This document shows, piece by piece, positions 19,804 to 37,751 of a DNA stretch of 64,000 nt. Made by a program: the position numbers and the translations under genes. The stretch covers positions 2,168,094 through 2,232,093 of the forward strand of contig OY970066.1 in the NCBI GenBank assembly GCA_963705285.1. Direction: 5' to 3'. Source of the DNA: an uncultured Chitinophagaceae bacterium. GTDB lineage: Bacteria; Bacteroidota; Bacteroidia; Chitinophagales; Chitinophagaceae. The stretch's first letter is position 1, and every line of letters begins with the position of its first letter. Under the pieces are notes generated by a model. The model saw only the letters and a list, made by a program, of their open reading frames with translations. It was not told the DNA's origin and ran no database searches.

Positions 19804-19936
19804 TTTGACGGTTAATCTTATCGAACCACAAGAGTCAATGAAGCTGTTCGCCTGATATGGGCCATGGGAGTGGGTTTCAGCGAAAATAAAAATGGACAAA
19901 CCGATCAAAAAATCGATTCGTCCACTTTGGTTACCC
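19804..19936 (+). mobile_element. 133-bp relic of a serine-recombinase 3' end plus att core (direct repeat of 36582-36714)
   Basis: My base-by-base alignment gives 127/133 identical positions to 36582-36714. Both copies end in GGTTACCC, which in the right-hand copy is the 3' end of tRNA-Gln(CUG). Confidence 0.75.
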
Positions 19937-19985
19937 CAGCTGGAGCTTTTTCGAATCATTTGGTAGAGGATTTGAAGCGCTTGGC
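19930..19985 (+). repeat. 56-bp att-like direct repeat, copy 1 (core GTTACCCC + flank)
   Basis: 52/56 identical to 21506-21561. Confidence 0.7.
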
Positions 19986-21561: not shown

Positions 21562-21776
21562 AAGATTAGCAGACTTAAAACCAGCAAGTTAACACCTAGA
21601 TTTACACCGGCAGTGTAACCAACTAAGAAACGTCATACTATGAATTCTGAATTTTACCCGAACCAATCTAAAGTTATTAGACATTGTATAGTTGCCCATC
21701 ATTCATGTATCATATTATACGCTTTGACCAGAACACCCCTATGACCCAAGCCTCTTGATTTGACCTCTGGATAATT

Positions 21777-22097
21777 TTACATATTAATTGAGCTACGGCC
21801 AGATGCTGCCATAAAAGCATCTTTAAGTACTTCGCTATAGGTTGGATGTGCATACACCATCTTGCATAGATGTATTCCTCGGCATTTTGTAACCTATCAT
21901 TAGTTTTAATGCGTCCTTTTTCATCAAATTGTATTGAAGTATGTTCTAAACCCAGACCAAAGGTATAGGGCTTGCGCCCAACTGCTACCAAGCAATAGTC
22001 ACCTCCCAGTGGCGTTGCTGATTTGCCTATAGAATCCGTATTATACACAGAAACGCTGTCTCCATTGTTGGTAACAGATTCTACCGTGCGCCAAAGA
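21777..22097 (-). pseudogene. fragment of a dihydrolipoyl dehydrogenase / pyridine nucleotide-disulfide oxidoreductase gene (truncated, frameshifted)
   Basis: One frame gives ...DYCLVAVGRKPYTFGLGLEHTSIQFDEKGRIKTNDRLQ... (central domain). A second frame gives MVYAHPTYSEVLKDAFMAASGRSSINM*, the conserved HxHPTxSE C-terminal motif. The N-terminal FAD domain is missing. Confidence 0.6.
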
Positions 22098-25700: not shown

Positions 25701-25985
25701 TGGAAATATCGGAATGGCCGAGAGTTTTTTGAACACATGTTTCGGCGAATAACAAAGACTAAAAATAACGATAGCTGTACGCGCCTTTTAAAAGGAACAG
25801 AAGATGAACTTGAATTTTTGCTTAACTCCGCCAAATGGACTAAAGAAATGAAGTTTCATATTTATATTGTCCAGCCTGGGTTCAATAAAAATTCGGCATC
25901 AGAAGAAATATTGCTATTGCTCGGGAGCACTGCGCATTATTTGCATTCGGTCGGCAACGTTGAGCTAAAGGTTTATTCGAGCTAA
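22734..25985 (+). CDS. SF2 DEAD/DEAH-box helicase with large C-terminal extension carrying a PD-(D/E)xK-like nuclease motif (stand-alone helicase-nuclease, putative defence gene)
   Basis: 1083 aa. Motif I MPTGTGKT (aa 152-159), motif II FIDEAHH, motif III FTATP, motif VI QFVGRFTR. C-terminal DDDGPGEIADIVGI ... VHMYHLKFAK (nt about 25530-25635). Confidence 0.75.
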   Translation: MITIRLPQARKLVFHHKANPAWQLFGEASVLEFSEIISTSPFIVSVNGYKYYFSSRPNVKVPAECNYGLLVSKMPVRKDFEDNKIHIIRWLKHPAFIETDPETIVASWRNKFHFVKEDTANDIKGLRPPQTGAIYSILAHGQNADNRAIIVMPTGTGKTEVMLSSLIVNQCQKLLVAVPSDALRTQLGNKFITLGLLKEFGIVERSCLNPVVGIINSKFLTTEELSAFLTKVNVVVTTMSILTTSSVEQKAFLSSSCSHFFIDEAHHAEATTWKELIGLFKNEKIFLFTATPFRTDDKKLEGKFIFNFSLRKAQEQKYYKKINYLPIRDYNPVTADEKIATKAVEQLRKDILAGHHHIILARCKDKIRAEAVFRFYEQYADLNPVLIYTGVAGLSKKVNDIKLKKHQIIVCVDMLGEGFDLPELKIAAVHDERQSIAITLQFVGRFTRPSYEALGEASFIANVAYPPIKHELDRLYASDSDWNLLLPVLSETATEKEIKFKEFLDGFANLDDSIIPFQSINPALSTVVYTNGTNEWSPNNWREGIHNIDSYDHQFSKHNPAKNTLVIILGQINKVDWGRFDTVQNLEWHMVVVIWDLRPGINRIFINTSIKDLNTKKLVSAIFKEDNQIVDGMDVFKIFHNVNRLAIFNFGGRKDLGKDISFQSFFGRGVQDGLALMQQGTLIKNNIFGSGYKDGEKITLGCSVSGKVWSYLRGNLEELVQWCKQIGETITDSEIDHNTVLQHTLFPVTITERPAVLPIRVDWHPEMYLHSEFRYEFQINGKLYDLSDCELNIVEVPNNANLQFSYDTAESSSVFELILGERIIDGKRLAFHEVQKLSGPSVSISYASKVNQPLTDFFQEFTPVIWFADNSQLLQNRYLRLRESVGQIDLDAIVIDTWNGVNLRHESQGIYPYQKDSIQFYFISKIIDDFEMVYDDDGPGEIADIVGINNLETHIDVHMYHLKFAKQGKVSNEIDNFYQVCGQAQKSLNWKYRNGREFFEHMFRRITKTKNNDSCTRLLKGTEDELEFLLNSAKWTKEMKFHIYIVQPGFNKNSASEEILLLLGSTAHYLHSVGNVELKVYSS

Positions 25986-26349: not shown

Positions 26350-28302
26350 ATGAATTTAATTTTTGTATACATCGAAAGTTTTAGGTCACTTAATGATGTC
26401 AACTTTAACCTGGGCGGAAAATTCCGGTTTGAATATAATGCAGTAACTAAAAAACTGAATGCTAAAGCCAACCCGGTTTACTTAAATGGGTTTTATGATG
26501 TTATTGAGGACAGGCAACCTGGTTTTGCTATAATTGACCATGTATCGGCTATCGTTGGGGAGAATGGCACTGGAAAAACGACCTTCCTCGATTTTATCAA
26601 GGAGAATTTTCCTGATGGAGTAGGTGGCTTTAGAACCAAGGCGATTTTTGCCTACCAGGACAGCAAAACCCAGGCAATCACTATTTACAGGCACAAGGTG
26701 CTTGATATTGATCAACAGTCTATCGCTGACTTAACCGAAAATAATATTTCATTGCGTGATTACGGCCCCAAGAAAGTAATCTCACATAATAAAAAACTCA
26801 GGGATTTGCTGGATATCACTCAGCACGATACTGTTGATCATACCATCGATACCGATTACGTCTACCTGTCCAATATTTTTGATAAAAAATATGAAAATGT
26901 ATATGGGGCCTTACATAATTTGTCCACCAATTACTTGCTCAGAAATGATTCTGCAAAATTGAAGGAAAACAATTTAAACAATGCTTTAGAACTGGTTGAG
27001 CAACATCGCAGCAGTGAAATCCACCGGGAAATGGATTTTATTAACGCTTTTCAAAAAGATTACAAACAATACCTGAGTTTTGATTTGCCTGATAAGATAA
27101 ATGCCTTTTTATTAATACAGTTTGAATACAAGAAAAATGAAAAATTATTTGAAGAAAGGGCATACTATTATTTGAGGGCTTTGGAAGAATTCTTACAGAG
27201 GCGGACACAGTTTCTTAGTACATATCAAAATTTTATCAGTACTTTTTTTTTCACAGGTATTTCAAATGTATTCAATGAATACTATAAGTATTCTTCAGAA
27301 ATTCTTTACCGTCCGGAAATTACTTTTGATGGTGAAAAGATTGGTGTTAATGATTTTTTAAAGATGTTGAATGATATTCTTGATGACCTACTACCCCAGC
27401 TAGATAATTTTGGATACCTAACAAAAAAGCTACTTCCCTTTCGGCAGCTTGTGTCCCTGCTTGATACCTATGTCAAAACCTATGACAATAAGATAATAGA
27501 AGCACCGCCTGGATTTCAATTCCAGATTTCAACTGAAAAGATGCAGGCTGAATTTTTTAGTTTTTATAACATGTATAAAGAAACTTTTCAGTTTGAGCCA
27601 TATTTAAATTTCGATTGGGATGATCGCAGTACAGGAGAGAAGGCCTTATTGAATATTTATTCCCGGTTATTTTCATTGTCGGATGCTGTTTATAACAGAA
27701 CAGCAGCAAACCTTATCCTGAAGGAGAATGTAATGGTTTTAATAGATGAAGGTGAGTTGTATCTTCACCCAACGTGGCAGAAGGAGTTGTTATTTCAATT
27801 ATTAAAAATATTGCCGATCATCTTTCAAAGGTCTGCTATCAGTAATCAGACTGAACCAAGGAAGATCCAATTGATATTTACTTCTAATTCCCCTTTAATG
27901 ATCACGGATATTCCTTCCAATAATATTGTATTCCTGAAAAAAGCCAAGGCAGGTGATCCGAGAAAAGTGATTGTGCAGGACAGCCTCAACGACCAGAAGC
28001 AAACTTTTGCTGCAAACATTCACACCCTCCTTTCTGATTCTTTTTTTATGGATTCTTACCTGATGGGTGAATTCGCTTACTTTAAGATCAACAAAGTGAT
28101 CAGTATACTGCTCGGCACAAATACGGAAATTGAAAACAATAAGGAAGAAATTCAGAAAGTAATTATGATGATAGGAGAGCCAGTGATAAAATCCAAATTA
28201 ACCCAGATGCTGAACGAAAGGTTATCGCTTAATATGGTTGATTTAAACGGAAGAATAACACAATTGGAGCGGCAGTTTGCGGAATTAAAAAAAGATAATT
28301 AA
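26350..28302 (+). CDS. AAA_15/AAA_21-type ABC-like ATPase (Septu PtuA-like)
   Basis: 650 aa. Walker A VGENGTGKTT, signature-like RSTGEKALL, Walker B VMVLIDEGELYLHP. Stop lies 1 nt before the HNH gene start. Confidence 0.75.
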   Translation: MNLIFVYIESFRSLNDVNFNLGGKFRFEYNAVTKKLNAKANPVYLNGFYDVIEDRQPGFAIIDHVSAIVGENGTGKTTFLDFIKENFPDGVGGFRTKAIFAYQDSKTQAITIYRHKVLDIDQQSIADLTENNISLRDYGPKKVISHNKKLRDLLDITQHDTVDHTIDTDYVYLSNIFDKKYENVYGALHNLSTNYLLRNDSAKLKENNLNNALELVEQHRSSEIHREMDFINAFQKDYKQYLSFDLPDKINAFLLIQFEYKKNEKLFEERAYYYLRALEEFLQRRTQFLSTYQNFISTFFFTGISNVFNEYYKYSSEILYRPEITFDGEKIGVNDFLKMLNDILDDLLPQLDNFGYLTKKLLPFRQLVSLLDTYVKTYDNKIIEAPPGFQFQISTEKMQAEFFSFYNMYKETFQFEPYLNFDWDDRSTGEKALLNIYSRLFSLSDAVYNRTAANLILKENVMVLIDEGELYLHPTWQKELLFQLLKILPIIFQRSAISNQTEPRKIQLIFTSNSPLMITDIPSNNIVFLKKAKAGDPRKVIVQDSLNDQKQTFAANIHTLLSDSFFMDSYLMGEFAYFKINKVISILLGTNTEIENNKEEIQKVIMMIGEPVIKSKLTQMLNERLSLNMVDLNGRITQLERQFAELKKDN

Positions 28303-28303
28303 T

Positions 28304-29386
28304 ATGTTTTTATACGATACCGGTACGCAAAATAGTTTTGCTGTTATTGCTGTGTCGCATTACGCAGGCTTGGAAGATTTCAAAATACTGAAATCGGGAG
28401 ACAAAAAATATTATGCGAGATCGATTATAGGAAAATTAGACAAGCTGGTCAAATCAAGCGCAAAAGGAGCCGTTTTTTTTAAAGATCTGAAAGCAGATGA
28501 TTACCACTTACTGCGACGCATTATCGTTGGAAAGCCGGATGAGCTGGCTAACATTATAGAATCAATCAAGGCAAATGTTGATTTCGGAATATATCCCGCT
28601 ATGGTCCGACAATTGAAAAAAAAACAGGTGCTTACAACTTTTGGCAAAAAAATCCAGGCATTGTTTGACTACAAACAATTTACGACAAAGCGCAATCGCT
28701 GGGACGCTTATACTTTGGCAGCTGAACTGGGAATTAATGTTTGTGCTTATTGCAACAGAAATTTTACATTTACACTGGCATCTGGGAAAAATAAAGTAGT
28801 ACGCCCTGAATTTGATCATTTTCTACCCAAATCTAGTTACCCTTACCTTGCCCTTTCCTTTTATAACTTGATTCCTTCCTGCCATATTTGCAATTCCAAT
28901 TTTAAATTGGATTTACCATTCAATTTGGATGAATATATTCATCCATACCTTGCAAGCCTTGATAGTATTGTTCGTTTTTCGGTTGAATTAACAGGTATGC
29001 CAGGAGCCGACCTAATTAAAGAAAAGTCAAATTTTGGAGTTGCCTTTTTTTATGGCAATTTGAAAAGTTTCAAAATAGTCCTTACATCCAGGCCTCATGC
29101 GACTGCTGCGGAAGTTGTAAAGGCGAAAAAAAATATTGAAGCTTTTAAATTGCTATTACTTTATGAAATGCATAAAGATATGGTTGTCGAGATGATACAA
29201 AACGCGATTTTGTATGATAGTACTTATATAGATGCGTTGTTTAATAAATTTAATGGCACTTTATTTAATACAAGAGAAGACGTGTTGCGGCACATTACGA
29301 AAAACTATCATAACGGTATCGATATGCCAAAGCGGGCTTTTTCAAAATTGTCAAAGGATATACACCTTGAATTTGGATTACAATAG
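28304..29386 (+). CDS. HNH endonuclease (Septu PtuB-like / TIGR02646-like)
   Basis: 360 aa. CAYCNRNF ... RPEFDHFLPKSSYPYL ... YNLIPSCHICNSNFK (CxxC ... DH..PKS ... N ... CxxCNxxK). Confidence 0.75.
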   Translation: MFLYDTGTQNSFAVIAVSHYAGLEDFKILKSGDKKYYARSIIGKLDKLVKSSAKGAVFFKDLKADDYHLLRRIIVGKPDELANIIESIKANVDFGIYPAMVRQLKKKQVLTTFGKKIQALFDYKQFTTKRNRWDAYTLAAELGINVCAYCNRNFTFTLASGKNKVVRPEFDHFLPKSSYPYLALSFYNLIPSCHICNSNFKLDLPFNLDEYIHPYLASLDSIVRFSVELTGMPGADLIKEKSNFGVAFFYGNLKSFKIVLTSRPHATAAEVVKAKKNIEAFKLLLLYEMHKDMVVEMIQNAILYDSTYIDALFNKFNGTLFNTREDVLRHITKNYHNGIDMPKRAFSKLSKDIHLEFGLQ

Positions 29387-29741
29387 GGATGATAAGTTGT
29401 AGAGGTTGATATTAACGAACGCTTTTTCAGCGTTAAATAATATTTCCAACGAATCTGCATTTTTTCGGCAACCAGAATTGGAGGATTGGGCATCTTAGAA
29501 TCTACTTGATAACCACCATAGATTAAAGAAGCGATATGGCCGCTTTATGTTCGCAACCGGCCGTCAATAGTATTGATTTTAAACCAATTCACAGTCAGTC
29601 TGAATTATAAATTTATAATCTTGTCATCCATAAACACCGGGATACGGCTAATGAAAAAGCGACAACAGATTTTAAAAAATAACTCAAATGGCTTATAAGT
29701 TGAGTTACTTTGTAATACCTTAATGAAGTCAATAAATTCTG

Positions 29742-31355
29742 TTAATTCTTGAATCGTTTTACAACGAGCTTTTTTCGAATAGATTGAACTTTCATGATAT
29801 CTTCGGTACAAAGGCCAAGGGTTGAATTGAGTATATGGGAATCATAACCTTCAAGTACATCTTCGATGATCAATTTCTTTTCAAAAGATTGTCTGAATTG
29901 ATTGAAGCTTTCATTTGATATTTCCACATAGGGAACTGGCAATTTCTTAAATTCCTGCGGTGTTAGTTCCAGTACTCCACCTCCGTAATATCTTCCATTA
30001 AGTTCTGCAAATGTCAGCGTTAATGAGTTATAAAAAGAATAGACAAGATGGTTAATAACAAACCCATGTCTCATATCAACTTTATAAGCTGTATCAGTTA
30101 CAAGTACAGCCGCATTGTTAACAAGAAATTTGGGATAATGATGGACACGACGAAAGAAAAATCCTTCTGGTGCTACCGCAACATTCGGAATAACGAACCA
30201 ATTTTTCCTTTTGGCACATTTATACCCTAATGGAATTTTCTTTTCAATACCTATATTCAAATATTCGGATATAGACTGATAGGAACGTGTTGTTATTTCG
30301 TCTGAAAAACAGAGTACTTTTGAGGGCTTCCCTTCAACCACAAGCTGGTCATATTCCTTTTGTTCGAACACCACGCTGCCATTTACAAAATGGCCTTTTT
30401 GGATAATAGGTCTGGCATATTTGCCAAGTCTGTAACGTTTTTCGGTTGCCTGGTCAATAATAAAAAAATTATTGGCTGCTGTTACAATGCCTGGTTTTGA
30501 TTCGCAATAATGATTGATATTATTAAGTCTCTTTCCTATATTATTTATAAAAGTTAATTCATCAGATGATACAGTGTGGTGTGTCCATTTTGTATCTGTT
30601 GCAGTCAGGGCTATATTCTGCTTTAGGATAAAATTCGAAGTGAGTAATTGATTTGTATCTGTAATGTGTGTAAAGAACTGCCCCTTTTGCACATGCTTTT
30701 TAAATCCAAATAGCAATATAGTGTCCTGGCCTTTGCATTCAAATAATAAATCATCAAAAGTGAATATTTCCAACCTTTCGAAATTCGCAGATAAATAAGT
30801 CCTGAGCTCCGCAGAAAAATTGACCTGTAATAATTCTGCGGGTAAGACAAAGGCAAGTATTCCATTCTCCGCTAGAAGCTGTGTACACCTTATCAGAAAT
30901 GTTGGCCAGATATTTTTTACGGAGGCATCAGAAAGCGAAGCGGCAATGTTTATTTCAGCGCAAACCTTGATTTGTGATTTAATTAGTAAAGACTTCTTTA
31001 TATAGGGTGGATTTCCGGCAATTAGTGAGTATTTGCTTTTTTTCTCTTTTTGATACTCAAGGAAATCCATATTTGTGAACGAAAATCGGGTATGGTGATT
31101 ATTACTTGCAAAAGCACTCTCCTTTGCTTTTTCCAATGCCTGATTTGTTTTTTCAATAGCATCAAAAGAAAAATGTATGATATTATCGGGGAAAATAGTT
31201 TGATTGTAAGCTCTGATAAAACTGCCATCGCCGACACTGGGTTCCAGAATTCGAATGCTATCGGCTTCTATAAAATAGCCGGACACGTAGGACATTATAA
31301 ATTCGGCCAGATAACTAGGTGTATAATACGAGCCTGTATGTTTTTGTTTATTCAA
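29742..31355 (-). CDS. gamma-class N6-adenine DNA methyltransferase (Eco57I/TaqI-like) with C-terminal target-recognition region
   Basis: 537 aa. GSYYTP, motif I ILEPSVGDGSF, motif IV NPPY (aa 115-118). About 300 aa of C-terminal TRD-like sequence. The start overlaps the upstream HNH stop by 4 nt. Confidence 0.8.
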   Translation of the reverse strand: MNKQKHTGSYYTPSYLAEFIMSYVSGYFIEADSIRILEPSVGDGSFIRAYNQTIFPDNIIHFSFDAIEKTNQALEKAKESAFASNNHHTRFSFTNMDFLEYQKEKKSKYSLIAGNPPYIKKSLLIKSQIKVCAEINIAASLSDASVKNIWPTFLIRCTQLLAENGILAFVLPAELLQVNFSAELRTYLSANFERLEIFTFDDLLFECKGQDTILLFGFKKHVQKGQFFTHITDTNQLLTSNFILKQNIALTATDTKWTHHTVSSDELTFINNIGKRLNNINHYCESKPGIVTAANNFFIIDQATEKRYRLGKYARPIIQKGHFVNGSVVFEQKEYDQLVVEGKPSKVLCFSDEITTRSYQSISEYLNIGIEKKIPLGYKCAKRKNWFVIPNVAVAPEGFFFRRVHHYPKFLVNNAAVLVTDTAYKVDMRHGFVINHLVYSFYNSLTLTFAELNGRYYGGGVLELTPQEFKKLPVPYVEISNESFNQFRQSFEKKLIIEDVLEGYDSHILNSTLGLCTEDIMKVQSIRKKLVVKRFKN

Positions 31356-31969
31356 GGCTTTCTAATTTCGGCAAGTTTATATGGACTAATGGTTTCTCTT
31401 GCTGCCAAATGATTTCTTACATCACTAACTACAGTAAATATTTTTTTTATCAATTCTTTATCTTGCACTTTAGATGCGAGTGTTGTTACTTCGTTAAAGA
31501 GTTTAACTTCTTTGTTTGATAATTTATATTCCCTTCTTTCATGCATAAGCTGCGGCCTATTTAAATACATTCTGTGTATCACATAGTTTGCGGATACGCA
31601 ATTCCCGTCAATGGTAAAAGTTGTATCATCGACACTAAGAATTTTATCGTAGTCGGTTAAACTAGGGTCTGGGTAACTAGCCACTTTCAAATCGGGATCT
31701 GCAGGCCAATCATCGTTTTTAAACCGGTTGCAGACGGGGCAAGTGAGGAAAAGATTGGCAATATCATTTTCGAGTTTTTTAAATGCAGCTATTGATTTAG
31801 GTCTGAAATGTTCAACATGAAAATTGTCAAGGCCACCCCAATGGTTAACATGGATAGCGCAATAAACACATTGTTGATAGCATTCTTCCGCAATTTGCTC
31901 TTTCCAGTCAGAATAAGTTCCCGTTACAGGTTGCTTTACGCCATTTTTATTTACAAGCTTGTATGTCAT
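31352..31969 (-). CDS. HNH endonuclease (PtuB-like / TIGR02646-like)
   Basis: 205 aa. CVYCAIHV ... FHVEHFRPKS ... ANLFLTCPVCNRFKND. 4-nt overlaps with both neighbours. Confidence 0.75.
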   Translation of the reverse strand: MTYKLVNKNGVKQPVTGTYSDWKEQIAEECYQQCVYCAIHVNHWGGLDNFHVEHFRPKSIAAFKKLENDIANLFLTCPVCNRFKNDDWPADPDLKVASYPDPSLTDYDKILSVDDTTFTIDGNCVSANYVIHRMYLNRPQLMHERREYKLSNKEVKLFNEVTTLASKVQDKELIKKIFTVVSDVRNHLAARETISPYKLAEIRKP

Positions 31970-32628
31970 TTTTTATCAAGTTTCTGCAATAATTCCTCTT
32001 TCAGACTTTCAAGATCCGCAATGTGTACCTGATATTGATCAAGCCATGCCTTTCTATCGTTAAATCCAGTCGTTGGAAGCTCAAGTTTCACCTGCAATGC
32101 TTTTAGCCGCTCCAATTTTTGTAAATCATCATCTCCTGCAGCAACTGCTTTTGTCAGTTCATTGAATTCGCTTAATTCTTTGGTGTTAGAATCAAGGTAT
32201 CGTTGCCCTGATCTTACAATGATTGGAGTATACATCTTGCCGCCATCTTCATCTTCCGTTATTTCTTTCCGGGTCAGAATATATTCAAACTCACTAAATT
32301 TAGAATTTAAATCATCGTCAGGAGCATAAGTAGTAACCATAAAAATCGGAAAATCTTTTAGGCGTTTACGCAGCTCCGTTACCAGCTCATTTCCTTTATA
32401 ACTAACGGGTCCGCTTTCTCCATTCGACTGATCGTTCAAACGTTCATCCAGGATCAAAACGCAAATGTCATTGGATTCGATAAAATCAAAGTACGATTCT
32501 ACCTGCTGGAAAGGGAATTGCGTAATAGTGGTAAAATTACTTTTGAAAATTTTCAAGTAATGATCAAGCGTTTTTTTCAGTGTACTGCTTTGATCGGCAT
32601 TGTCATCAATAATAGCAATCTGAGGCAT
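31966..32628 (-). CDS. CheY-like receiver domain protein with coiled-coil C-terminus (no DNA-binding output)
   Basis: 220 aa. IAIIDDN acidic pair; putative phospho-acceptor Asp61 in VLILDER (codon at 32446-32448); FMVTTY threonine position. The C-terminal 90 aa is heptad-rich. Confidence 0.65.
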   Translation of the reverse strand: MPQIAIIDDNADQSSTLKKTLDHYLKIFKSNFTTITQFPFQQVESYFDFIESNDICVLILDERLNDQSNGESGPVSYKGNELVTELRKRLKDFPIFMVTTYAPDDDLNSKFSEFEYILTRKEITEDEDGGKMYTPIIVRSGQRYLDSNTKELSEFNELTKAVAAGDDDLQKLERLKALQVKLELPTTGFNDRKAWLDQYQVHIADLESLKEELLQKLDKK

Positions 32629-32629
32629 T

Positions 32630-34966
32630 TTAATCTACTTTTGGTAACCAAATTTTAAATCTTGCTCCTTTTAATACAGGATCTTTGTCAACAATGACTT
32701 CCCCTTTTAATTCTTCAGTAATTGATTTCACAATGGTCAGACCAAGCCCAGTTCCCACGCTTTTGCTTGCATTTGCCCCAACAGTTTTTGTTGAAAACAA
32801 TGGTTCGAAAATCCGGTGTTCAAATTCTTTTGCAATTCCAGGACCGGTATCTGCGATTGAAAAATAAAACCCATCTATTTCTCCCAATGATTCTTTTTCT
32901 ACTGAAACCGATATGATCCGCTCGCCCGGTTTAAGTAGGGTCGCAGTATATGAATTGGTGAGTAAATTGACCAGAATGGATTCAATATCCATCGGATAAG
33001 TAGTTTGATAAAAATTTTCACCTTCAACATTGATTCTGATGGAAGAGGCTTCAAAAGCCGGCAACAATTCTTTTATAACTGTTCTTATTGTTTTGATGAC
33101 TTGTATTTTTCTTCTGCTGCGTTTTTCCCGTTGAACTCTGGTAAGTGCATAAGCGCCCCATGCGGCAACTTTCTTTGAATGCTTCAATGCCTTTTCTAAT
33201 TCTTCCAAGGCGCTTGCAATGTTGGGGGGCTCTTCGGTGAGCAAAAGCTTTGCAGTTGTAACAGATCCTTTAAACTGTGATATTGAGCTTTCGGTCTCAT
33301 GCCCGAATACAGCAGAAGAGATACCCATAGTGGCTAAACCACTAAGGACGCGCTGCCAGTTTAATAGTTCATTAATTGTGTCACTAACTTCCTCCGAAAT
33401 GTTTTCAACCGTTGAAATGGTTTTCATAATTGGCTTAAGAAAATTCGTCGGTTTTGTTTTATCGCCTTTTTTTTCTATTTCATCCTTGATATTAGTCAAA
33501 TCGATGGCAACGTCATTTAGTTGTGATCGTATTTTTATAGCTTCCTGGTGAGCAGAAGTCGCTTCCTTTTTCTTTTTTACTTTTTCAATTTCCGGATTTA
33601 TTTTGACGCGATAAGTTTCCAGTAACAATACAGCTCCTTTAACTATTGCTTTTAACTCTGAAAATTCAGGGGATTCTACCAAACCTTCTCTGGCTGCACT
33701 GTCTATTAATTTTGGATTGTTATCCCTTGCAATAAAAACTGCTCCTACTAATTGATTGGGGTTAACTGTATAATCATTGCCACGTCCAATACCTGCTGGA
33801 TTTCGCAGCTTCCGTTCTCCCAATTCCAGCCAATCGTATCCAAATTGTGAACTAGGAAACCCGTACGGCTTAATAGCAAAATTATCCCGGTATATTTTAA
33901 TACCAGCATTGTTATCAAGAAAGCTACGCAAATCAGATAATTTTAATTTTGTTCCTGAAATAGAAGCGGCTTCTCTTAAAAAAAATAATAGTTTGATAGT
34001 TATTGGCCCCAATGACAAATCAATCGATACTTCTTCATTAATTTCACGGCTGGATATTTGGGAAAGTAAAGTTTGCCATTGAATCAGTTCAGTCGTTTCT
34101 TTTTCAGAATACTTATCTTTTACAGTATAAATAATATCGGATCCCTTACCGTCATAAATTGCAGTTAGCTCAATCTCTGCTGCTTTATAAAAATCTGCTT
34201 TTACAATACCTGAAAACACCTGGGCTACATCATTTTCGAATCGCACTTTAAAATCTTCTACTTCTTTCCACGGCGGTGTTAAAGAAGACAATTCAAAATA
34301 TAGATTTTCAACATTGCGAGTGGACCAGGACTGGCGAAGTCCTGTAATTTTTATTTCCGTTCCTGAATTACTTTCTTTACCCTCTCGTAATGGCAGGCAG
34401 ATAGTTGTGGGATTTGTCAATTCTATATCGATATCAAATATGTCCTTGCTATCAACGTCGAAATCGTTCCAATTTACTTTCAACCCGATTATACCATCTT
34501 CTTCCGATTTAGTTTTTAATTCAAGCATTGCACCTAACCGATCAGTTGAAATACGTCCAATCCCTTTCTCACCTGTTTTACGCCTACCAAGCCCGCTGAG
34601 TTTTGATTGCCTTTTGCTTGAAAACCCGATCCGTAGCCAGCTATTTAGTAACTGGTTTCTGTTCATTCCAAAACCATTGTCTGCAACACGTATTAAATCC
34701 TTGCCATTTTTGCAAAACACTTCTACCTCGACACTATGGGCGTCCGCATCATAACTATTCTTTACCAATTCAATAAGCGCAGTAGTATGATCTTTAATAC
34801 TGTCCCGGCCAAGGTGAATTAGGGTCTTTGCATCCATGGAAAACCGTTGGAATTTAGTGTCCAGTTTGGACAGTTCATTTGACAATTTCAGGATGGAACG
34901 ATAATCAGGATCTTTAGCCTGTAGTAATTCAATAAGCTGTTTTTGCAATTTTTCAGCCGCGTGCAT
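32630..34966 (-). CDS. fusion of an N-terminal MORC/Hsp90-like GHKL ATPase (HATPase_c_3-type) with a C-terminal histidine-kinase core (DHp + HATPase_c)
   Basis: 778 aa. N-terminal module: ELVKNSYDADA, DNGFGM, GEKGIGR (aa 66-138). C-terminal module: H-box AVFGHETES (His556 = nt 33299-33301), N-box LVNLLTNSYTA, G1 DTGPGI, F-box IFEPLFSTK, G2 GTGLGL. No predicted TM segment. Confidence 0.75.
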   Translation of the reverse strand: MHAAEKLQKQLIELLQAKDPDYRSILKLSNELSKLDTKFQRFSMDAKTLIHLGRDSIKDHTTALIELVKNSYDADAHSVEVEVFCKNGKDLIRVADNGFGMNRNQLLNSWLRIGFSSKRQSKLSGLGRRKTGEKGIGRISTDRLGAMLELKTKSEEDGIIGLKVNWNDFDVDSKDIFDIDIELTNPTTICLPLREGKESNSGTEIKITGLRQSWSTRNVENLYFELSSLTPPWKEVEDFKVRFENDVAQVFSGIVKADFYKAAEIELTAIYDGKGSDIIYTVKDKYSEKETTELIQWQTLLSQISSREINEEVSIDLSLGPITIKLLFFLREAASISGTKLKLSDLRSFLDNNAGIKIYRDNFAIKPYGFPSSQFGYDWLELGERKLRNPAGIGRGNDYTVNPNQLVGAVFIARDNNPKLIDSAAREGLVESPEFSELKAIVKGAVLLLETYRVKINPEIEKVKKKKEATSAHQEAIKIRSQLNDVAIDLTNIKDEIEKKGDKTKPTNFLKPIMKTISTVENISEEVSDTINELLNWQRVLSGLATMGISSAVFGHETESSISQFKGSVTTAKLLLTEEPPNIASALEELEKALKHSKKVAAWGAYALTRVQREKRSRRKIQVIKTIRTVIKELLPAFEASSIRINVEGENFYQTTYPMDIESILVNLLTNSYTATLLKPGERIISVSVEKESLGEIDGFYFSIADTGPGIAKEFEHRIFEPLFSTKTVGANASKSVGTGLGLTIVKSITEELKGEVIVDKDPVLKGARFKIWLPKVD

Positions 34967-35144
34967 TTAGTAAAAAGTTTTGATACAGGTTAACTATCAG
35001 CGATTTACGGCAAGATATGAATTAAATACCAAGCAATACGCTTGTGTGGTCTAAAGTTAAGACACCGGACAAAAGATTCTTGTATGAATTGCATGTAAAT
35101 ATGCTGTAAATTAATAACGATAGCGAATAATTGGTATCATATAT

Positions 35145-36033: not shown

Positions 36034-36714
36034 ATAACGGGTTTTACTAACGAAAGAGAAGAGAGAAAAATAGCAATAAGCCAATTTTTAACCGGGAGAG
36101 CCAATCAAAAATATTATTACTATCACTGCAATGCAAAATGTGGTGTGAGGTTTAAAGCCGCGGAAGCAAATCGCTTGTTTTCTTCATCGCTGAAAAAGTT
36201 GCTGCCAAAGCCTGGTATGAGTGAAGTTTTTAAGCTGGTGCTGGAACAAGAATTACGGGCAAAATCAAGAGGTCAAAAAGAGGAAAGTAAAAAGGTGCAG
36301 GCCGATTTACAAAAAGCTAATACAGAGCTTGCAAATGCGCGCAGGTTATTGTTAACAGGTGAAATCGAGCCTTCAGAATACAAAACTATTAAGGCGAATA
36401 TGAAAAAAAGATGGAGAGACTAGACTGGACAATTTTCGAACTTTCCAGGCAGTCGGAAAATATTGATGATTTGCTTAAAAAGGCCGTCCAGTCGCTATCT
36501 CAGATGGATCAGCTTTATGAAAATTCAGACAACGAAGTGAAAAGACAGATAATTGGTTCGATATTTCCCGAAAAAATGGTCTTTGACGGCCAATCTTATC
36601 GAACCACAAGAGTCAATGAAGCTGTTCGCCTGATATGGGCCATGGGAGAGGGTTTCAGCGAAAATAAAAATGGACAAACCGACCAAAAAATCGATTTGTC
36701 CAGTTTGGTTACCC
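36034..36714 (+). pseudogene. serine recombinase relic (N-terminal catalytic domain missing; frameshift in an A7 run at about 36403-36409)
   Basis: In-frame after the stop at 36031-36033: ...LTGRANQKYYYYHCNAKCGVRFKAAEAN... (zinc-ribbon region). It continues in ORF 36145..36423, then shifts frame into ORF 36411..36797 (...IGSIFPEKMVFDGQSYRTTRVNEAVRLIW...ENKNGQ). No resolvase catalytic domain lies upstream. Confidence 0.65.
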
Positions 36715-36779
36715 GACCTGGATTCGAACCAAGACAAGCAGAACCAGAATCTGCGGTACTACCGTTATACTATCGGGCA
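36706..36779 (-). tRNA. tRNA-Gln (anticodon CUG), CCA encoded
   Basis: Reverse complement is TGCCCGATAGTATAACGGTAGTACCGCAGATTCTGGTTCTGCTTGTCTTGGTTCGAATCCAGGTCGGGTAACCA. I folded it by hand into a cloverleaf: 7-bp acceptor with one G-U, anticodon loop TTCTGGT, T-loop TTCGAAT. Confidence 0.85.
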
Positions 36780-36829: not shown

Positions 36830-36830
36830 G

Positions 36831-36901
36831 TTGGCCTACCAGGATTCGAACCTAGACAAACTGAACCAAAATCAGTTGTACTACCATTATACTATAGGCC
36901 A
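36831..36901 (-). tRNA. tRNA-Gln (anticodon UUG), CCA not encoded
   Basis: Reverse complement is TGGCCTATAGTATAATGGTAGTACAACTGATTTTGGTTCAGTTTGTCTAGGTTCGAATCCTGGTAGGCCAA. Cloverleaf folds by hand; anticodon loop TTTTGGT. Confidence 0.85.
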
Positions 36902-36953
36902 TCCTAAAATGGAGTGCAAAAATAAGGTTTGAGTGCTTTGCTTCCAAAAGGTT

Positions 36954-37100
36954 TTAGCTGTTAGCTATTAGCTATTAGCTTCTAGCTTAGCCATTAGCTG
37001 TTAGCTATTAGCTTTTAGCCCTTTACAGAGCAGCCAGACCTTTAGCTATTAGCTGTTAGCTTTAGCTTGGCTATTAGCTGTTAGCTACAAGCTGTTAATC
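36954..37100. repeat. degenerate tandem heptamer array (TTAGCTN)n
   Basis: Read directly: ttagctgttagctattagctattagcttctagcttagccattagctgttagctattagc... Lies downstream of the four-helix-bundle gene. Confidence 0.8.
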
Positions 37101-37185
37101 CTTTACGCCGAGGAAACGGTCCAAGCCTCCAAAATCGTTCGCACGTCATCCAATGTAGCGCTGCAAGTGCCCTGAGTGACACCCG

Positions 37186-37551
37186 CTAACGGTTAGCAGT
37201 TGCTTTCAGGGTTTTGCCGAATGCAGTAAGCATTTTTTCCTCTTCCGCCAGTTGATGTAGCAATTCCACCACCAAATCCCTGCTGCCATAATTGAGCTCT
37301 TTTGCTATTAGTAATTGTGTTTCAAGTTCAAAACAGGAACCAAGTGAGATTTGGATAAAATGCAGGTAATCTTTACTGCTATTTCTGCCACTGCCTTCTG
37401 CAATATTTGATGGTATAGATACTGCAGCACGGTTCATTTGCGACACCAAACCAAACCGTTCATTAGAAGGAAAATCTTTGGTTAGTTGATAGCTTATAGT
37501 TGCTATTTCAATTCCTTTTTGCCAGATTTTTAACTGTTTGAAATTACGCAT
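37186..37551 (-). CDS. four-helix-bundle protein (23S rRNA intervening-sequence protein family)
   Basis: 121 aa. FKQLKIWQKGIEIA..., SQMNRAAVSIPSNIAEGSGRNSSKDYLHFIQISLGSCFELETQL are hallmark motifs of this family. Confidence 0.85.
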   Translation of the reverse strand: MRNFKQLKIWQKGIEIATISYQLTKDFPSNERFGLVSQMNRAAVSIPSNIAEGSGRNSSKDYLHFIQISLGSCFELETQLLIAKELNYGSRDLVVELLHQLAEEEKMLTAFGKTLKATANR

Positions 37552-37557
37552 AGAGAA

Positions 37558-37589
37558 GCTGTTAGCTATTAGCTTTTAGCTATTAGCCA
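37558..37589. repeat. (TTAGCTN) heptamer array, forward arm
   Basis: gctgttagctattagcttttagctattagcc. Inverted partner at 37714-37751. Confidence 0.75.
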
Positions 37590-37713
37590 TACCGTGGCAA
37601 GTTAATTTACCAAGCTAACAGGACAAGGGTGAAAACCTCTCTTTAAAGCTGTTTTTTAAACACACTTTTTGGTATAAAACACCGAGGCCTAATATTGGCA
37701 AGACAAAAGCACT

Positions 37714-37751
37714 AAAAGCTAACAGCTAATAGCTAATAGCTAACAGCTAGC
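37714..37751. repeat. (NAGCTAA) heptamer array, reverse arm
   Basis: aaaagctaacagctaatagctaatagctaacagctagc. Overlaps the cphA stop codon. Confidence 0.75.

What the first reader, a model, noticed from the sequence alone, without database searches (positions are those of the whole stretch)
29742..34966. Four-gene operon wiring a GHKL-ATPase/histidine-kinase fusion and a receiver protein to a PtuB-like HNH nuclease and an N6-adenine methyltransferase
Four minus-strand ORFs are packed with 4-nt overlaps or a 1-nt gap (32630..34966, 31966..32628, 31352..31969, 29742..31355). This looks like one translationally coupled operon.

Gene 1 (778 aa) fuses two different GHKL modules:
- an N-terminal MORC/Hsp90/MutL-like ATPase (ELVKNSYDADA, DNGFGM, GEKGIGR; aa 66-138);
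- a complete histidine-kinase core (H-box AVFGHETES with His556 at nt 33299-33301; N-box LVNLLTNSYTA; G1 DTGPGI; F-box IFEPLFSTK; G2 GTGLGL).
It has no transmembrane or PAS-type sensor.

Gene 2 (220 aa) is a CheY-like receiver (IIDDN, LILD61ER, MVTT) with a coiled-coil tail and no DNA-binding output.

Gene 3 (205 aa) is an HNH nuclease of the same CxxC...(D/E)HF.PKS...CxxCNxxK subtype as the Septu-like PtuB gene 3 kb away.

Gene 4 (537 aa) is a gamma-class m6A methyltransferase (GSYYTP, EPSVGDGSF, NPPY) with a long TRD-like tail.

A phosphorelay with no transcriptional output that sits on a nuclease/methylase pair, inside a tRNA-linked defence island, suggests phosphorylation-gated restriction or abortive infection. 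The logic recalls Detocs (kinase, receiver, effector) and MORC-linked R-M systems. I do not recognise this four-gene combination as a named system.
Basis: partly seen in the sequence, partly recalled or inferred. Interest (0 to 1): 0.9.

Follow-up and report, generated by a model that had tools for sequence, protein, structure and literature searches.

The report
Ambrosia-like kinase-gated nuclease/methylase defence cassette
This is a real, widely conserved four-gene anti-phage cassette in which a soluble histidine kinase with a MORC-like ATPase head and a receiver protein sit on a small HNH nuclease and an adenine methylase. It is a distant, previously uncatalogued relative of the "Ambrosia" defence system validated in Pseudomonas in 2025, so it is a new variant rather than a new kind of system.

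Summary
Four tightly packed minus-strand genes (29742-34966) encode:
- a GHKL(MORC-like)-histidine-kinase fusion;
- an atypical receiver protein with a helical tail;
- a PtuB-like HNH nuclease;
- a gamma-class N6-adenine methyltransferase.

The set is not a chance neighbourhood. About 50 reference genomes, mostly Bacteroidota, and a conjugative Bacillus plasmid carry the same genes in the same order.

It is not unnamed. g1, g2 and g3 are distant homologues (38%, 25% and 28% identity) of AbrB, AbrC and AbrD of Ambrosia, a defence system validated in P. aeruginosa (bioRxiv 10.1101/2025.09.30.679545). The receiver Asp61, HNH His54 and GHKL Asn70 align with residues shown to be essential there. 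The kinase/receiver pairing next to R-M genes was also predicted in 2021 (PMC8011034).

Differences from Ambrosia:
- a non-orthologous Eco57I-type MTase replaces AbrA;
- the gene order differs;
- there is no XRE regulator;
- the phylum differs.

New here: three unrelated adenine-MTase families are exchanged on about 80%-identical g1-g2-g3 modules, and the receiver has no detectable DNA-binding domain.

Most likely mechanism: a phosphorelay gates the nuclease. The role of the MTase is unresolved.

Verdict: new variant of a known kind, moderate interest.

The parts
32630..34966 (-). g1: soluble GHKL(MORC-like)-histidine kinase fusion, 778 aa (AbrB homologue)
   Evidence: ORF. Pfam HATPase_c_3 + HATPase_c. 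38% identity, E=2e-69, to AbrB residues 1-399. More than 2000 homologues, the top 120 full-length. 1014 representative clusters at E<=1e-30. No TM segment.
34277..34849 (-). g1 N-terminal GHKL ATPase head (aa ~40-230), with E66/N70/D73/D75, DNGFGM and GEKGIGR
   Evidence: Pfam PF13589. Profile hits to MutL, MORC3 and Hsp90. Residues invariant in A1. Asn70 aligns with AbrB N40, whose N40A mutation abolishes Ambrosia defence. NCBIfam and PADLOC match only the N-terminus of BbrUII/HgiDII-type restriction enzymes.
33677..34249 (-). g1 beta-rich middle domain (aa ~240-430), function unknown, possibly an S5-like transducer
   Evidence: AF2 secondary structure, low to moderate confidence. Conserved with AbrB, e.g. 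IYRD..KPYG..DWL..NQ.VGAVFI..N.NP.L.D...REGL. No Pfam family.
33344..33670 (-). g1 long coiled-coil linker (aa ~433-541) between the ATPase head and the kinase core
   Evidence: AF2 helices 433-455, 457-467, 472-503 and 507-541.
33137..33319 (-). g1 DHp helical hairpin (aa ~550-610) with phospho-acceptor His556 (codon 33299-33301)
   Evidence: AF2 helices 550-577 and 583-610. Profile alignment to SrrB and AdeS starts at residues 555/556. G555, H556, E557 and E559 are invariant.
32642..33112 (-). g1 catalytic ATP-binding (CA) domain (aa ~619-775) with N, G1, F and G2 boxes
   Evidence: Pfam PF02518, E=1.6e-24. Foldseek HK853/CckA CA. N667, N671, D706, G708, G710, G738, G740 and G742 are invariant.
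31966..32628 (-). g2: atypical receiver protein, 220 aa (AbrC homologue). REC is aa 1-124 (Asp61 codon 32446-32448), followed by a three-helix tail at aa 129-219
   Evidence: AF2 model, pLDDT 79.6. Foldseek REC domains. hhalign to AbrC at 97.9% probability, E=4.7e-13, over g2 residues 3-166. D61 aligns with AbrC D60, which is essential. D8/D9/D61 are invariant and the C-terminal motif is conserved. No HTH in Pfam even at E<=10.
31352..31969 (-). g3: PtuB-like HNH nuclease, 205 aa (AbrD homologue). Zinc ligands C34/C37/C77/C80; catalytic His54 (codon 31808-31810)
   Evidence: Pfam HNH. PADLOC PtuB, E=2.5e-20. TIGR02646 and PtuB hits below cutoff. 28% identity, E=1e-15, to AbrD, with H54 aligned to the essential H60. 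Motif residues invariant in 38 cassettes.
29742..31355 (-). g4: gamma-class N6-adenine DNA methyltransferase, 537 aa. Catalytic domain aa 1-245 (NPPY codons 31002-31013); M_Eco57I_C target-recognition domain aa 254-532. Not orthologous to AbrA
   Evidence: Pfam M_Eco57I_C, E=2.3e-35, plus Eco57I and N6_Mtase. PADLOC MTase_II PDLC03267, E=5e-135. M.BseCI and M.TaqI are the closest solved relatives. Only 22% identity, E=1e-4, to AbrA. GNPPY invariant.
34967..35144 (-). 178-nt region upstream of g1, the presumed promoter/leader of the operon. It contains no XRE/AbrR-like gene
   Evidence: Sequence and small-ORF list. Terminator-like hairpin at 35030-35044 after the upstream ORF. No tblastn hit in the window for the XRE proteins that abut g1 in 13 of 51 related loci.
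29529..29545 (-). terminator-like hairpin about 200 nt downstream of g4, a possible operon end
   Evidence: Consensus scan only; weak evidence.
36582..36722 (+). context: right copy of the 141-nt direct repeat (att-like) overlapping the 3' end of tRNA-Gln(ctg); right boundary of the island
   Evidence: the repeat finder family D2, 94% identity. Alignment. tRNA-Gln at 36706-36779.
19804..19944 (+). context: left copy of the 141-nt direct repeat; left boundary of the ~16.8-kb low-GC island that carries the cassette
   Evidence: GC is 0.35-0.38 inside the island against 0.44-0.50 outside.

Best explanation
What it is: a four-gene member of the Ambrosia family of anti-phage systems, carried on a tRNA-Gln-integrated island.

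Proposed working:
1. g1 is a soluble dimeric sensor kinase. Its input module is a MORC/MutL-type GHKL ATPase head, not a ligand-binding domain. A long coiled coil couples that head to a HisKA-type DHp/CA core.
2. An infection cue sensed by the ATPase head, probably on DNA, drives autophosphorylation of His556.
3. The phosphoryl group passes to Asp61 of g2.
4. Phospho-g2, which has only a conserved helical tail and no recognisable DNA-binding domain, switches on the PtuB-type HNH nuclease g3. I favour direct protein-protein licensing, possibly combined with operon induction.
5. g4 is a required but exchangeable helper. What the three-gene module needs from it is N6-adenine methylation as such, not a particular recognition sequence or a particular partner protein.

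Shown here:
- domain identities;
- conservation of catalytic residues;
- strict co-conservation and co-evolution of g1-g2-g3;
- recent MTase exchange;
- homology to Ambrosia.

Taken from the Ambrosia experiments:
- anti-phage function;
- the requirement for the GHKL Asn, the receiver Asp, the HNH His and the MTase.

Inferred:
- that the ATPase head is the sensor;
- the direction of phosphotransfer;
- direct rather than transcriptional activation;
- the role of the methyl mark.
For: Identity and homology:
- g1 vs AbrB 38% identity, E=2e-69; g2 vs AbrC hhalign 97.9% probability; g3 vs AbrD 28% identity, E=1e-15.
- The essential Ambrosia residues N40, D60 and H60 align with g1 N70, g2 D61 and g3 H54.

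A true module:
- 37 fully colinear cassettes plus partial ones, across Bacteroidota, Ignavibacteriota, Balneolales, Leptospiraceae and TM6.
- The same order and the same MTase family on a conjugative Bacillus plasmid.
- g2/g3 and g3/g4 overlaps of 1-4 nt in most loci.
- Pairwise-identity correlations of 0.80-0.85 among g1, g2 and g3, against 0.60-0.67 for g4 with the others.

Both ATPase sites, His556, the receiver acidic pocket, the HNH and NPPY are conserved.

Receiver without a DNA-binding output:
- no Pfam HTH at E<=10;
- the AF2 tail is three long helices with no wing;
- Foldseek matches only the REC part credibly;
- AbrC shows no Pfam HTH either.

No separately regulated effector promoter is possible inside the operon, because the junctions run from -4 to +1 nt.

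Only 13 of 51 loci have an XRE gene, and the window has none, so gating in the four-gene form must come from the kinase/receiver pair itself.

MTase is exchangeable:
- g1 proteins 80-82% identical are paired with AbrA-type (L032), Eco57I-type (L012, L008) or a third 558-aa MTase (L014).
- The AbrA-type gene lies convergent to the operon in L011, L032 and L058.
- L034 has two tandem kinase-receiver-HNH modules but one MTase.
- All replacement MTases in the HNH-bearing clade are gamma-class N6-adenine enzymes.

Effector modularity in distant relatives, with a metallo-beta-lactamase-fold protein in place of the HNH in L053 and L062, fits a sensor/relay + effector design.
Against: - No experiment exists for this clade.
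- In Ambrosia, reporters replacing abrA or abrD were induced on infection, and the authors report a wHTH in AbrC. That points to transcriptional control. My failure to find an HTH is negative evidence only.
- The g1 model is of modest quality (pLDDT 64), so the idea that the ATPase head is the sensor rests on architecture alone.
- The His556 equivalent has not been mutated in Ambrosia. The N40A mutation hits the N-terminal ATPase, not the kinase.
- g2 has Arg in place of the canonical beta5 Lys.
- g2-g3 co-evolution can be explained by co-inheritance.
- The role of methylation is unresolved. Ambrosia data (an MTase mutant loses defence; phage grown on AbrA-only cells is still restricted; no host toxicity) do not fit a simple protective model or a simple methylation-dependent model.
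- Known defence genes flank only a minority of related loci.
Confidence: 0.55

Rival explanations
1. The model of the Ambrosia authors applied here. The kinase/receiver pair is a transcriptional switch that keeps the operon almost silent. On infection, phospho-g2 induces the MTase and the HNH. The HNH behaves like a type IV enzyme that attacks DNA carrying the system's own m6A mark.
For: - Reporter induction on infection, loss of defence in the MTase mutant, and no protection of phage grown on AbrA-expressing cells, all in Ambrosia.
- Free exchange of unrelated m6A MTases on near-identical g1-g3 modules, and one MTase shared by two modules in L034. This is what a sequence-agnostic, mark-dependent nuclease would allow.
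- XRE genes abut g1 in 13 of 51 loci.
Against: - g2 and AbrC have no detectable DNA-binding domain.
- All four genes are translationally coupled in one transcript, so the switch would have to induce itself.
- 38 of 51 loci, including the window, lack the XRE.
- g3 and AbrD are PtuB/TIGR02646-type HNH proteins with no recognisable modified-base reader.
- Co-expression of an m6A MTase with an m6A-dependent nuclease should be toxic, yet no host toxicity was seen in Ambrosia.
Confidence: 0.27
2. BREX-like or type III-like logic. The MTase marks self DNA and also reads unmethylated sites on incoming DNA. It hands that signal to the GHKL-kinase, which activates the HNH through the receiver. Methylation is protective.
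For: [quoted passage not shown]
- An MTase needed for defence, whose loss is not toxic, has a precedent in BREX (own knowledge).
- MORC/paraMORC GHKL ATPases are linked to R-M systems (PMC8011034).
- All partner MTases share the gamma-class catalytic fold, which could offer a common docking surface.
Against: - Three unrelated MTase architectures, one of them encoded convergently, pair with about 80%-identical g1-g3 modules. That makes a specific MTase-kinase complex unlikely.
- Phage propagated on AbrA-expressing cells stayed sensitive in Ambrosia, although methylation of that phage was not reported as verified.
Confidence: 0.13
3. An ordinary type II R-M pair (HNH restriction enzyme + MTase) that merely carries or neighbours a two-component regulator, or a cassette with a non-defence role such as epigenetic regulation or repair.
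For: - PADLOC and Pfam classify g4 as a type II MTase, and g1's N-terminus resembles BbrUII/HgiDII restriction enzymes.
- Few flanking genes in related loci are known defence genes.
Against: - MTase exchange without change in the HNH would be lethal for a sequence-matched R-M pair.
- The 205-aa g3 has no room for a specificity domain and is PtuB-like.
- The four genes are co-conserved as a unit across phyla.
- The homologous Ambrosia system protects against phage, and every gene is needed.
Confidence: 0.05

Closest known systems
Ambrosia (AbrR-AbrA-AbrB-AbrC-AbrD), P. aeruginosa; van den Berg et al., bioRxiv 10.1101/2025.09.30.679545
   Same: - Homologous GHKL-kinase (38% identity), receiver (hhalign 97.9%) and PtuB-like HNH (28% identity).
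- An N6-adenine MTase is always present.
- The essential residues N40, D60 and H60 are conserved as N70, D61 and H54.
- Some sister loci (L011, L032, L058) even carry an AbrA orthologue (34% identity, E=2e-53).
- 13 of 51 loci carry an XRE gene at the head of the operon.
   Different: - The MTase is a non-orthologous Eco57I-type enzyme with an M_Eco57I_C domain (22% identity to AbrA).
- Gene order is kinase-receiver-HNH-MTase rather than regulator-MTase-kinase-receiver-HNH.
- No XRE regulator in the window.
- The hosts are Bacteroidota and Bacillota, whereas the preprint found Ambrosia only in Gammaproteobacteria.
- Sequence identity is low enough that the authors' HMM cutoffs may not capture it.
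- No experimental data for this clade.
HEF_HK / Response_reg_2 'two-component-like' pairs linked to R-M and paraMORC ATPases (Bellieny-Rabelo et al. 2021, PMC8011034)
   Same: - Same kinase architecture (HATPase_c_3 + DHp + HATPase_c; soluble).
- An adjacent small receiver-like protein without an output domain.
- Embedded in R-M-type gene neighbourhoods that include HNH and N6 MTases.
   Different: - Neither PF19191 nor PF19192 is reported for g1 or g2, even at E<=10, nor for the plasmid relatives tested.
- That study emphasised C5-MTase/Vsr contexts, as in the Campylobacter loci L059 and L095.
- It was purely computational and did not define a fixed four-gene system.
Septu (PtuA/PtuB) and retron type I-A effectors
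   Same: g3 is a PtuB/TIGR02646-type HNH (PADLOC E=2.5e-20). This is a small nuclease that, in those systems, is controlled by a partner ATPase (control by the partner: own knowledge).
   Different: - The partner is a GHKL-histidine kinase plus a receiver, not an ABC/SMC-like PtuA.
- An MTase is part of the system.
- NCBIfam PtuB scores are far below cutoff (27 against 150 bits).
Detocs (DtcA kinase, DtcB Hpt, DtcC receiver-effector)
   Same: Defence built on a phosphorelay with a non-transcriptional output (own knowledge of Rousset et al. 2023).
   Different: - No Hpt intermediate.
- The receiver is not fused to the effector.
- The effector is an HNH nuclease rather than a nucleoside phosphorylase.
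- An MTase is present.
- No sequence relationship was detected (no Detocs model among the PADLOC hits).
MORC/paraMORC GHKL ATPases of R-M systems and BbrUII/HgiDII-type restriction enzymes
   Same: g1's N-terminal 180-220 residues match the GHKL head of BbrUII/HgiDII-family enzymes (NCBIfam E=6e-22; PADLOC REase_II E=7e-13) as well as MutL and MORC3.
   Different: The match covers the ATPase head only. The C-terminal part is a histidine-kinase core instead of a nuclease or specificity region.
MADS and BREX (methylation-based, multi-gene, non-classical restriction)
   Same: An adenine MTase works with ATPase/kinase-like proteins. The MTase is needed for defence.
   Different: - Gene content is unrelated. 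MADS has 8 genes with a type I-like specificity subunit.
- g4 hits mad2 only at the MTase-fold level (E=8e-14).

Membership tests
Ambrosia defence system | AbrB-type kinase: N-terminal HATPase_c_3 plus C-terminal HATPase_c, homologous to AbrB | tested here: met
   BLASTP 38% identity, E=2e-69, over AbrB residues 1-399, the only part available. Same Pfam architecture.
Ambrosia defence system | AbrC-type receiver with the phospho-acceptor Asp (D60) | tested here: met
   hhalign 97.9% probability, E=4.7e-13, 156 columns. D61 aligns with D60.
Ambrosia defence system | AbrD-type (PtuB-like) HNH nuclease with the catalytic His (H60) | tested here: met
   28% identity, E=1e-15. H54 aligns with H60. 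Both hit PtuB/TIGR02646.
Ambrosia defence system | AbrA-type N6-adenine MTase | tested here: not met
   g4 vs AbrA 22% identity, E=1e-4, i.e. fold level only. g4 belongs to the Eco57I/M_Eco57I_C family. True AbrA orthologues occur in sister loci L011, L032 and L058. The function (m6A MTase) is present but the gene is not orthologous.
Ambrosia defence system | AbrR HipB-like XRE regulator in the cluster | tested here: not met
   No HTH ORF in the 178 nt upstream of g1. No tblastn hit in the window. Present in 13 of 51 related loci.
Ambrosia defence system | Scores above the authors' HMM cutoffs (AbrA 100, AbrB 500, AbrC 150, AbrD 200 bits) | not testable with these tools
   The HMMs are not available here. 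The cutoffs are quoted in the preprint.
Ambrosia defence system | Protects against phage, with every gene required | not testable with these tools
   Experimental. Shown only for the P. aeruginosa system.
HEF_HK / Response_reg_2 TCS-like pair (PMC8011034) | Match to Pfam PF19191 (HEF_HK) in the kinase | tested here: not met
   Not reported at E<=10. Also not reported for the Campylobacter and Bacillus relatives, so the model may be narrow or missing from this library copy.
HEF_HK / Response_reg_2 TCS-like pair (PMC8011034) | Match to Pfam PF19192 (Response_reg_2) in the receiver | tested here: not met
   Not reported at E<=10. g2 does hit NCBIfam NF052378 'LM5578_1851 family response regulator' below cutoff (41.5 against 150 bits).
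HEF_HK / Response_reg_2 TCS-like pair (PMC8011034) | Soluble HATPase_c_3 + DHp + HATPase_c kinase adjacent to a small receiver-like gene, in an R-M context | tested here: met
Canonical two-component system | Kinase with a DHp His and a CA domain with N/G1/F/G2 boxes | tested here: met
Canonical two-component system | Receiver with the acidic pocket, phospho-Asp, beta4 Thr/Ser and beta5 Lys | tested here: inconclusive
   D8, D9, D61 and the beta4 T/S are conserved. The beta5 position is Arg120 in this clade and Lys in AbrC. The fold is confirmed.
Canonical two-component system | Phosphotransfer from His to Asp | not testable with these tools
   Biochemical.
Type II restriction-modification | Stand-alone MTase with its own target-recognition domain | tested here: met
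   M_Eco57I_C domain; M.BseCI and M.TaqI relatives.
Type II restriction-modification | Cognate endonuclease whose specificity matches the MTase | tested here: not met
   Indirect test. Unrelated MTases pair with about 80%-identical g1-g3 modules, and two modules share one MTase in L034. g3 is a 205-aa PtuB-like HNH without a specificity domain.
Septu | PtuB HNH encoded next to a PtuA ABC-type ATPase | tested here: not met
   g3 is PtuB-like, but its neighbours are the GHKL kinase and the receiver. The true Septu-like pair (PDC-M62A/B) is a separate operon at 26350-29386.
Detocs | Kinase + Hpt phosphotransfer protein + receiver fused to an effector | tested here: not met
   No Hpt gene, and the receiver is not fused to an effector. 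No Detocs models among the PADLOC hits.
PADLOC candidate PDC-M60 | Matches to both the PDC-M60A and PDC-M60B models | tested here: not met
   Only a weak PDC-M60B hit for g2 (E=5e-4) and no PDC-M60A hit. The Bacillus cassette proteins hit neither.

The most novel reading that the evidence does not exclude
The phosphorelay acts post-translationally. A MORC-type ATPase head serves as the DNA-sensing input of a histidine kinase, and the phosphorylated receiver directly licenses a PtuB-type HNH nuclease through its conserved helical tail. The module uses N6-adenine methylation in a sequence-agnostic way, so any m6A methylase will do. That would make this family the first two-component pathway whose output is a nuclease rather than a promoter. 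It would also be an R-M-like immunity that has uncoupled restriction from the methylase's recognition sequence.
Probability: 0.35. Interest if true: 0.8.

Novelty: new variant of a known kind. Interest (0 to 1): 0.5.

Why it matters
- Reach: Ambrosia was reported only from Gammaproteobacteria. This work shows that the same kinase-receiver-HNH core is common in Bacteroidota, occurs on conjugative plasmids of Bacillota, and belongs to a superfamily of about 1,000 sequence clusters with exchangeable effectors and methylases. Current detection tools (PADLOC 2.0, Pfam, NCBIfam) do not recognise the kinase/receiver pair as defence genes.
- Limits on the mechanism: the methylase is swapped between unrelated families on nearly identical cores, the receiver has no detectable DNA-binding domain, and most loci lack the XRE regulator. 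A classical R-M reading and a purely transcriptional reading both have difficulty with these facts.
- Testability: if the relay gates the nuclease directly, this would be a new output type for two-component signalling. The four-gene form in this window is the minimal version on which to test it.

Tried and rejected
- Published Pfam models: I looked for PF19191 and PF19192 at E<=10 in g1 and g2, and later in the Campylobacter, Bacillus and Klebsiella relatives. There were no hits. I cannot tell whether the models are too narrow or absent from this library.
- PDC-M60 as an existing model for this system: rejected. Only a marginal PDC-M60B hit, and none for the Bacillus cassette.
- Shared operator upstream of g1 across 31 loci: only a clade-specific element and Bacteroidota-type -7 boxes were seen, with no family-wide motif. 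The sigma-70 scan was not enriched and does not suit this phylum.
- Rosetta-stone argument from receiver proteins with long C-terminal extensions (Campylobacter 331 aa, Hymenobacter 367 aa, L059 427 aa): the extensions have no recognisable domain, so nothing follows.
- Defence-island enrichment around related loci: only a handful of strong PADLOC hits among 136 nearest large neighbours, and no baseline was computed. This is descriptive only.
- Phage-borne copies: one IMG/VR contig has a full-length g1 relative, but at the contig end, so the cassette could not be assessed.
- Source organism: the sources give no names for the four proteins.
- MADS as a relative: rejected, because its gene content is unrelated.
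- Structure of g1: only pLDDT 64, so the middle domain remains unassigned.

Full report
**1. The observation**

The four ORFs exist exactly as described, on the minus strand:
- g1, 32630-34966, 778 aa
- g2, 31966-32628, 220 aa
- g3, 31352-31969, 205 aa
- g4, 29742-31355, 537 aa

There is a 1-nt gap between g1 and g2, and 4-nt overlaps at the other two junctions.

g1:
- Pfam finds HATPase_c_3 (aa 62-177, E=3.6e-22) and HATPase_c (aa 659-776, E=1.6e-24).
- A profile of 20 homologues aligns aa 555-777 with solved DHp+CA kinase cores (SrrB, HK853, AdeS), and aa 64-113 with MutL, MORC3 and Hsp90.
- The AF2 model (pLDDT 64) reads as GHKL head, beta-rich middle domain, long coiled coil, DHp hairpin carrying His556, then CA domain. 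Its C-terminal third matches HK853, EnvZ and KinB at TM about 0.6.
- Both ATP sites and His556 are invariant in the family.
- None of the four proteins has a TM segment.

g2:
- It reaches only a sub-threshold Response_reg score.
- Its AF2 model (pLDDT 79.6) is a clean (beta-alpha)5 receiver with Asp61 at the end of beta3, followed by three long helices.
- Foldseek returns receiver domains at TM about 0.7.
- D8, D9 and D61 are invariant. Arg120 replaces the beta5 Lys. The tail carries a strongly conserved motif.

g3 is an HNH of the PtuB/TIGR02646 type. g4 is a gamma-class adenine methylase with an M_Eco57I_C target-recognition domain, and M.BseCI and M.TaqI are its closest solved relatives.

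**2. It is one conserved module**

g1 has more than 2000 homologues. The best 120 are all full-length at 60-78% identity. An exhaustive search finds 1014 representative clusters at E<=1e-30.

Synteny:
- I fetched 80 loci from reference genomes. Nearly every locus with a full-length g1 homologue (42-75% identity) carries g2, g3 and g4 homologues downstream in the same order.
- These loci come from Chitinophagaceae, Flavobacteriaceae, Sphingobacteriaceae, Cytophagia, Ignavibacteriota, Balneolales, Leptospiraceae and a TM6 MAG.
- 37 loci are fully resolved colinear cassettes, with g2/g3 and g3/g4 overlaps of 1-4 nt in most.
- A conjugative Bacillus plasmid has the same four genes in the same order with the same MTase family (35% identity).

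Pairwise identities of g1, g2 and g3 track one another (Spearman 0.80-0.85). g4 tracks them less well (0.60-0.67).

**3. It is already known in kind**

Two publications cover this kind of system.
- PMC8011034 (2021) described, by computation only, soluble HATPase_c_3+DHp+HATPase_c 'HK-like' proteins. They were 91.6% linked to small 'RR-like' proteins and enriched next to type II R-M genes, and the authors related them to paraMORC ATPases.
- bioRxiv 10.1101/2025.09.30.679545 (2025) validated 'Ambrosia' in P. aeruginosa. Its genes are AbrR (XRE), AbrA (N6 MTase), AbrB (HATPase kinase), AbrC (REC) and AbrD (HNH).

In Ambrosia:
- point mutations in each gene abolish defence;
- reporters replacing abrA or abrD are induced on infection;
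- phage grown on AbrA-only cells is still restricted;
- no host toxicity is seen.

Using the sequences in that preprint's Table S1, I compared the window's proteins with Ambrosia:

| Window gene | Ambrosia protein | Result |
|---|---|---|
| g1 | AbrB (residues 1-399) | 38% identity, E=2e-69 |
| g2 | AbrC | hhalign 97.9% probability, through the receiver and the first tail helix |
| g3 | AbrD | 28% identity, E=1e-15 |
| g4 | AbrA | 22% identity, E=1e-4, methylase fold only |

The mutated Ambrosia residues map as follows:
- AbrB N40 to g1 N70. This is the N-terminal GHKL Asn, not the kinase.
- AbrC D60 to g2 D61.
- AbrD H60 to g3 H54.

**4. What differs, and what is new**

(a) The methylase is exchangeable.
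- L011, L032 and L058 have, instead of g4, a convergently encoded 434-aa MTase that is an AbrA orthologue (34% identity, E=2e-53).
- L014 and L040 have two further Eco57I/MmeI-type adenine MTases.
- The exchange is recent. L032 (AbrA-type) has a g1 that is 82% identical to L012's and 80% to L008's (both Eco57I-type), and 81% to L014's (third type).
- L034 has two tandem kinase-receiver-HNH modules but a single MTase.
- Every partner in the HNH-bearing clade is a gamma-class N6-adenine enzyme.

(b) The XRE regulator is optional. An HTH_3 gene abuts g1 in at least 13 of 51 loci, mainly Flavobacteriaceae. It is absent from the window and from most other loci.

(c) The receiver has no detectable DNA-binding domain, by Pfam at E<=10, by the AF2 model or by Foldseek. 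AbrC shows none in Pfam either.

(d) The wider superfamily swaps effectors.
- L053 (Microcoleus) and L062 (Pontiella) have a metallo-beta-lactamase-fold protein in place of the HNH, and L062 has an AbrA-type MTase upstream.
- Campylobacter pTet plasmids have a kinase, a 331-aa receiver with an unknown C-terminal domain and a convergent C5-MTase.
- A Hymenobacter plasmid variant sits next to a pAgo gene.

(e) Current libraries miss the system.
- PADLOC 2.0 has no model for the kinase or the receiver of any variant.
- Almost all g2 homologues are unannotated.
- PF19191 and PF19192 were not reported for any protein tested.

**5. Mechanism**

The anatomy is that of a cytoplasmic sensor kinase. A MORC/MutL-type ATPase head takes the place of the sensor domain and is joined by a signalling coiled coil to the DHp/CA core.

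The best-supported reading runs in three steps:
1. An infection cue acts on the ATPase head. In Ambrosia the head's Mg-ATP Asn is essential.
2. This drives the His556 to Asp61 phosphorelay.
3. The phosphorylated receiver turns on the PtuB-type HNH.

For this four-gene form I favour direct, protein-level licensing, for four reasons:
- The receiver lacks a DNA-binding domain.
- The effector genes have no promoter of their own, because the junctions run from -4 to +1 nt.
- Most loci have no XRE.
- PtuB-type HNH proteins are partner-controlled nucleases in Septu and retron systems (own knowledge).

This is inference. The Ambrosia reporter data show induction on infection, and the two modes could co-exist.

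The methylase exchange rules out a sequence-matched type II pair. It also argues against a specific MTase-kinase complex. It suggests that the core needs m6A as such. Whether the mark flags DNA for attack (the Ambrosia authors' view) or marks self is not settled, either by their data or by mine.

**6. Context in the window**

- The cassette lies in a low-GC segment (0.35-0.38 against 0.44-0.50 outside).
- The segment is bounded by a 141-nt direct repeat at 19804-19944 and 36582-36722. The right copy overlaps the 3' end of tRNA-Gln, and a further partial copy lies at 21506-21561. This indicates serial integration.
- The island also holds a strong PDC-M62A/B (Septu-like) pair and a 1083-aa ResIII helicase protein.
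- The 112-aa ORF upstream of g1 is island backbone, not part of the system.

**7. Verdict**

- The claim of an unrecognised system is not upheld. This is a distant four-gene variant of the Ambrosia family.
- Its value lies in extending that family across phyla and in the comparative limits it places on the mechanism.

Noticed in passing
window 19804-19944, 21506-21561, 36582-36722; tRNA-Gln 36706-36779 and 36830-36901: A 141-nt direct repeat (94% identical) brackets a ~16.8-kb low-GC island. The repeat is made of the 3' end of a recombinase-like ORF plus the first ~17 nt of tRNA-Gln(ctg). A third partial copy at 21506-21561 suggests two successive integrations. Two tRNA-Gln genes sit in tandem at the right end.
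   Followed up: partly
window 36145-36705 (+): Two short ORFs (92 and ~98 aa) with no Pfam family look like remnants of the island's recombinase/integrase. The second runs into the tRNA-Gln gene. The island appears to have lost a functional integrase.
   Followed up: partly
window 26350-29386 (+): A two-gene operon matches PADLOC candidate system PDC-M62 very strongly (PDC-M62A E=4e-147; PDC-M62B E=2e-84). It is an AAA_15/AAA_21 ATPase plus a 360-aa HNH protein, and so Septu-like. It is a separate system from the finding.
   Followed up: partly
window 22734-25985 (+): A 1083-aa protein has an N-terminal ResIII/DEAD helicase (aa ~125-450). Its ~600-aa C-terminal region has no family hit. It gives only weak PADLOC hits (PbeA, type IV REase). 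It may be a stand-alone defence gene of unknown type.
   Followed up: no
window 20090-21324 (+): An overlapping gene pair lies between the first two att-like repeats. One is a 185-aa protein with a weak Lrs14/Sta1-like HTH hit. The other is a 226-aa protein with weak nucleotidyltransferase/AbiEii hits. Together they may be an AbiE-like toxin-antitoxin module.
   Followed up: partly
window 36943-37106, 37544-37587, 37712-37749, around 37186-37551 (-): A gene for a '23S rRNA-intervening sequence protein' (PF05635, E=7e-38) is flanked on both sides by arrays of short TAGCTATTAGC-like repeats.
   Followed up: no
window 21710-22048 (-): A 112-aa ORF matches only the C-terminal part of a pyridine nucleotide-disulphide oxidoreductase (Pyr_redox_2, profile positions 221-272). 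It is probably a gene fragment left at an integration junction.
   Followed up: no
L034 2354-11460 (Flavobacterium procerum): Two paralogous kinase-receiver-HNH modules lie in tandem, with a single MTase between them. The second module has no MTase of its own.
   Followed up: partly
L053 8001-11746 (Microcoleus) and L062 6682-11654 (Pontiella): These are distant relatives of the system in which a 320-330-aa metallo-beta-lactamase-fold protein takes the place of the HNH nuclease. L062 has an AbrA-type MTase upstream of the kinase.
   Followed up: partly
L095 4974-9404 (Campylobacter coli pTet plasmid); 38 Campylobacter plasmids in all: Conjugative pTet-type plasmids carry a GHKL-kinase and a 331-aa receiver with an unassigned ~200-aa C-terminal domain, plus a convergent C5-cytosine methylase. 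There is no separate nuclease gene.
   Followed up: partly
L014 4440-7746: In this locus the cassette's MTase (558 aa) is followed by a 546-aa protein that fuses a BsuBI/PstI restriction-enzyme HTH domain to an AAA_21/AAA_15 ATPase.
   Followed up: no
L092 1-11236 (Hymenobacter sp. PAMC 26628 plasmid): A variant cassette (kinase 875 aa, REC-like 367 aa, 289-aa unknown protein, N6 methylase 655 aa) lies directly next to a large DNA methyltransferase and a Piwi-domain (prokaryotic Argonaute) gene.
   Followed up: no
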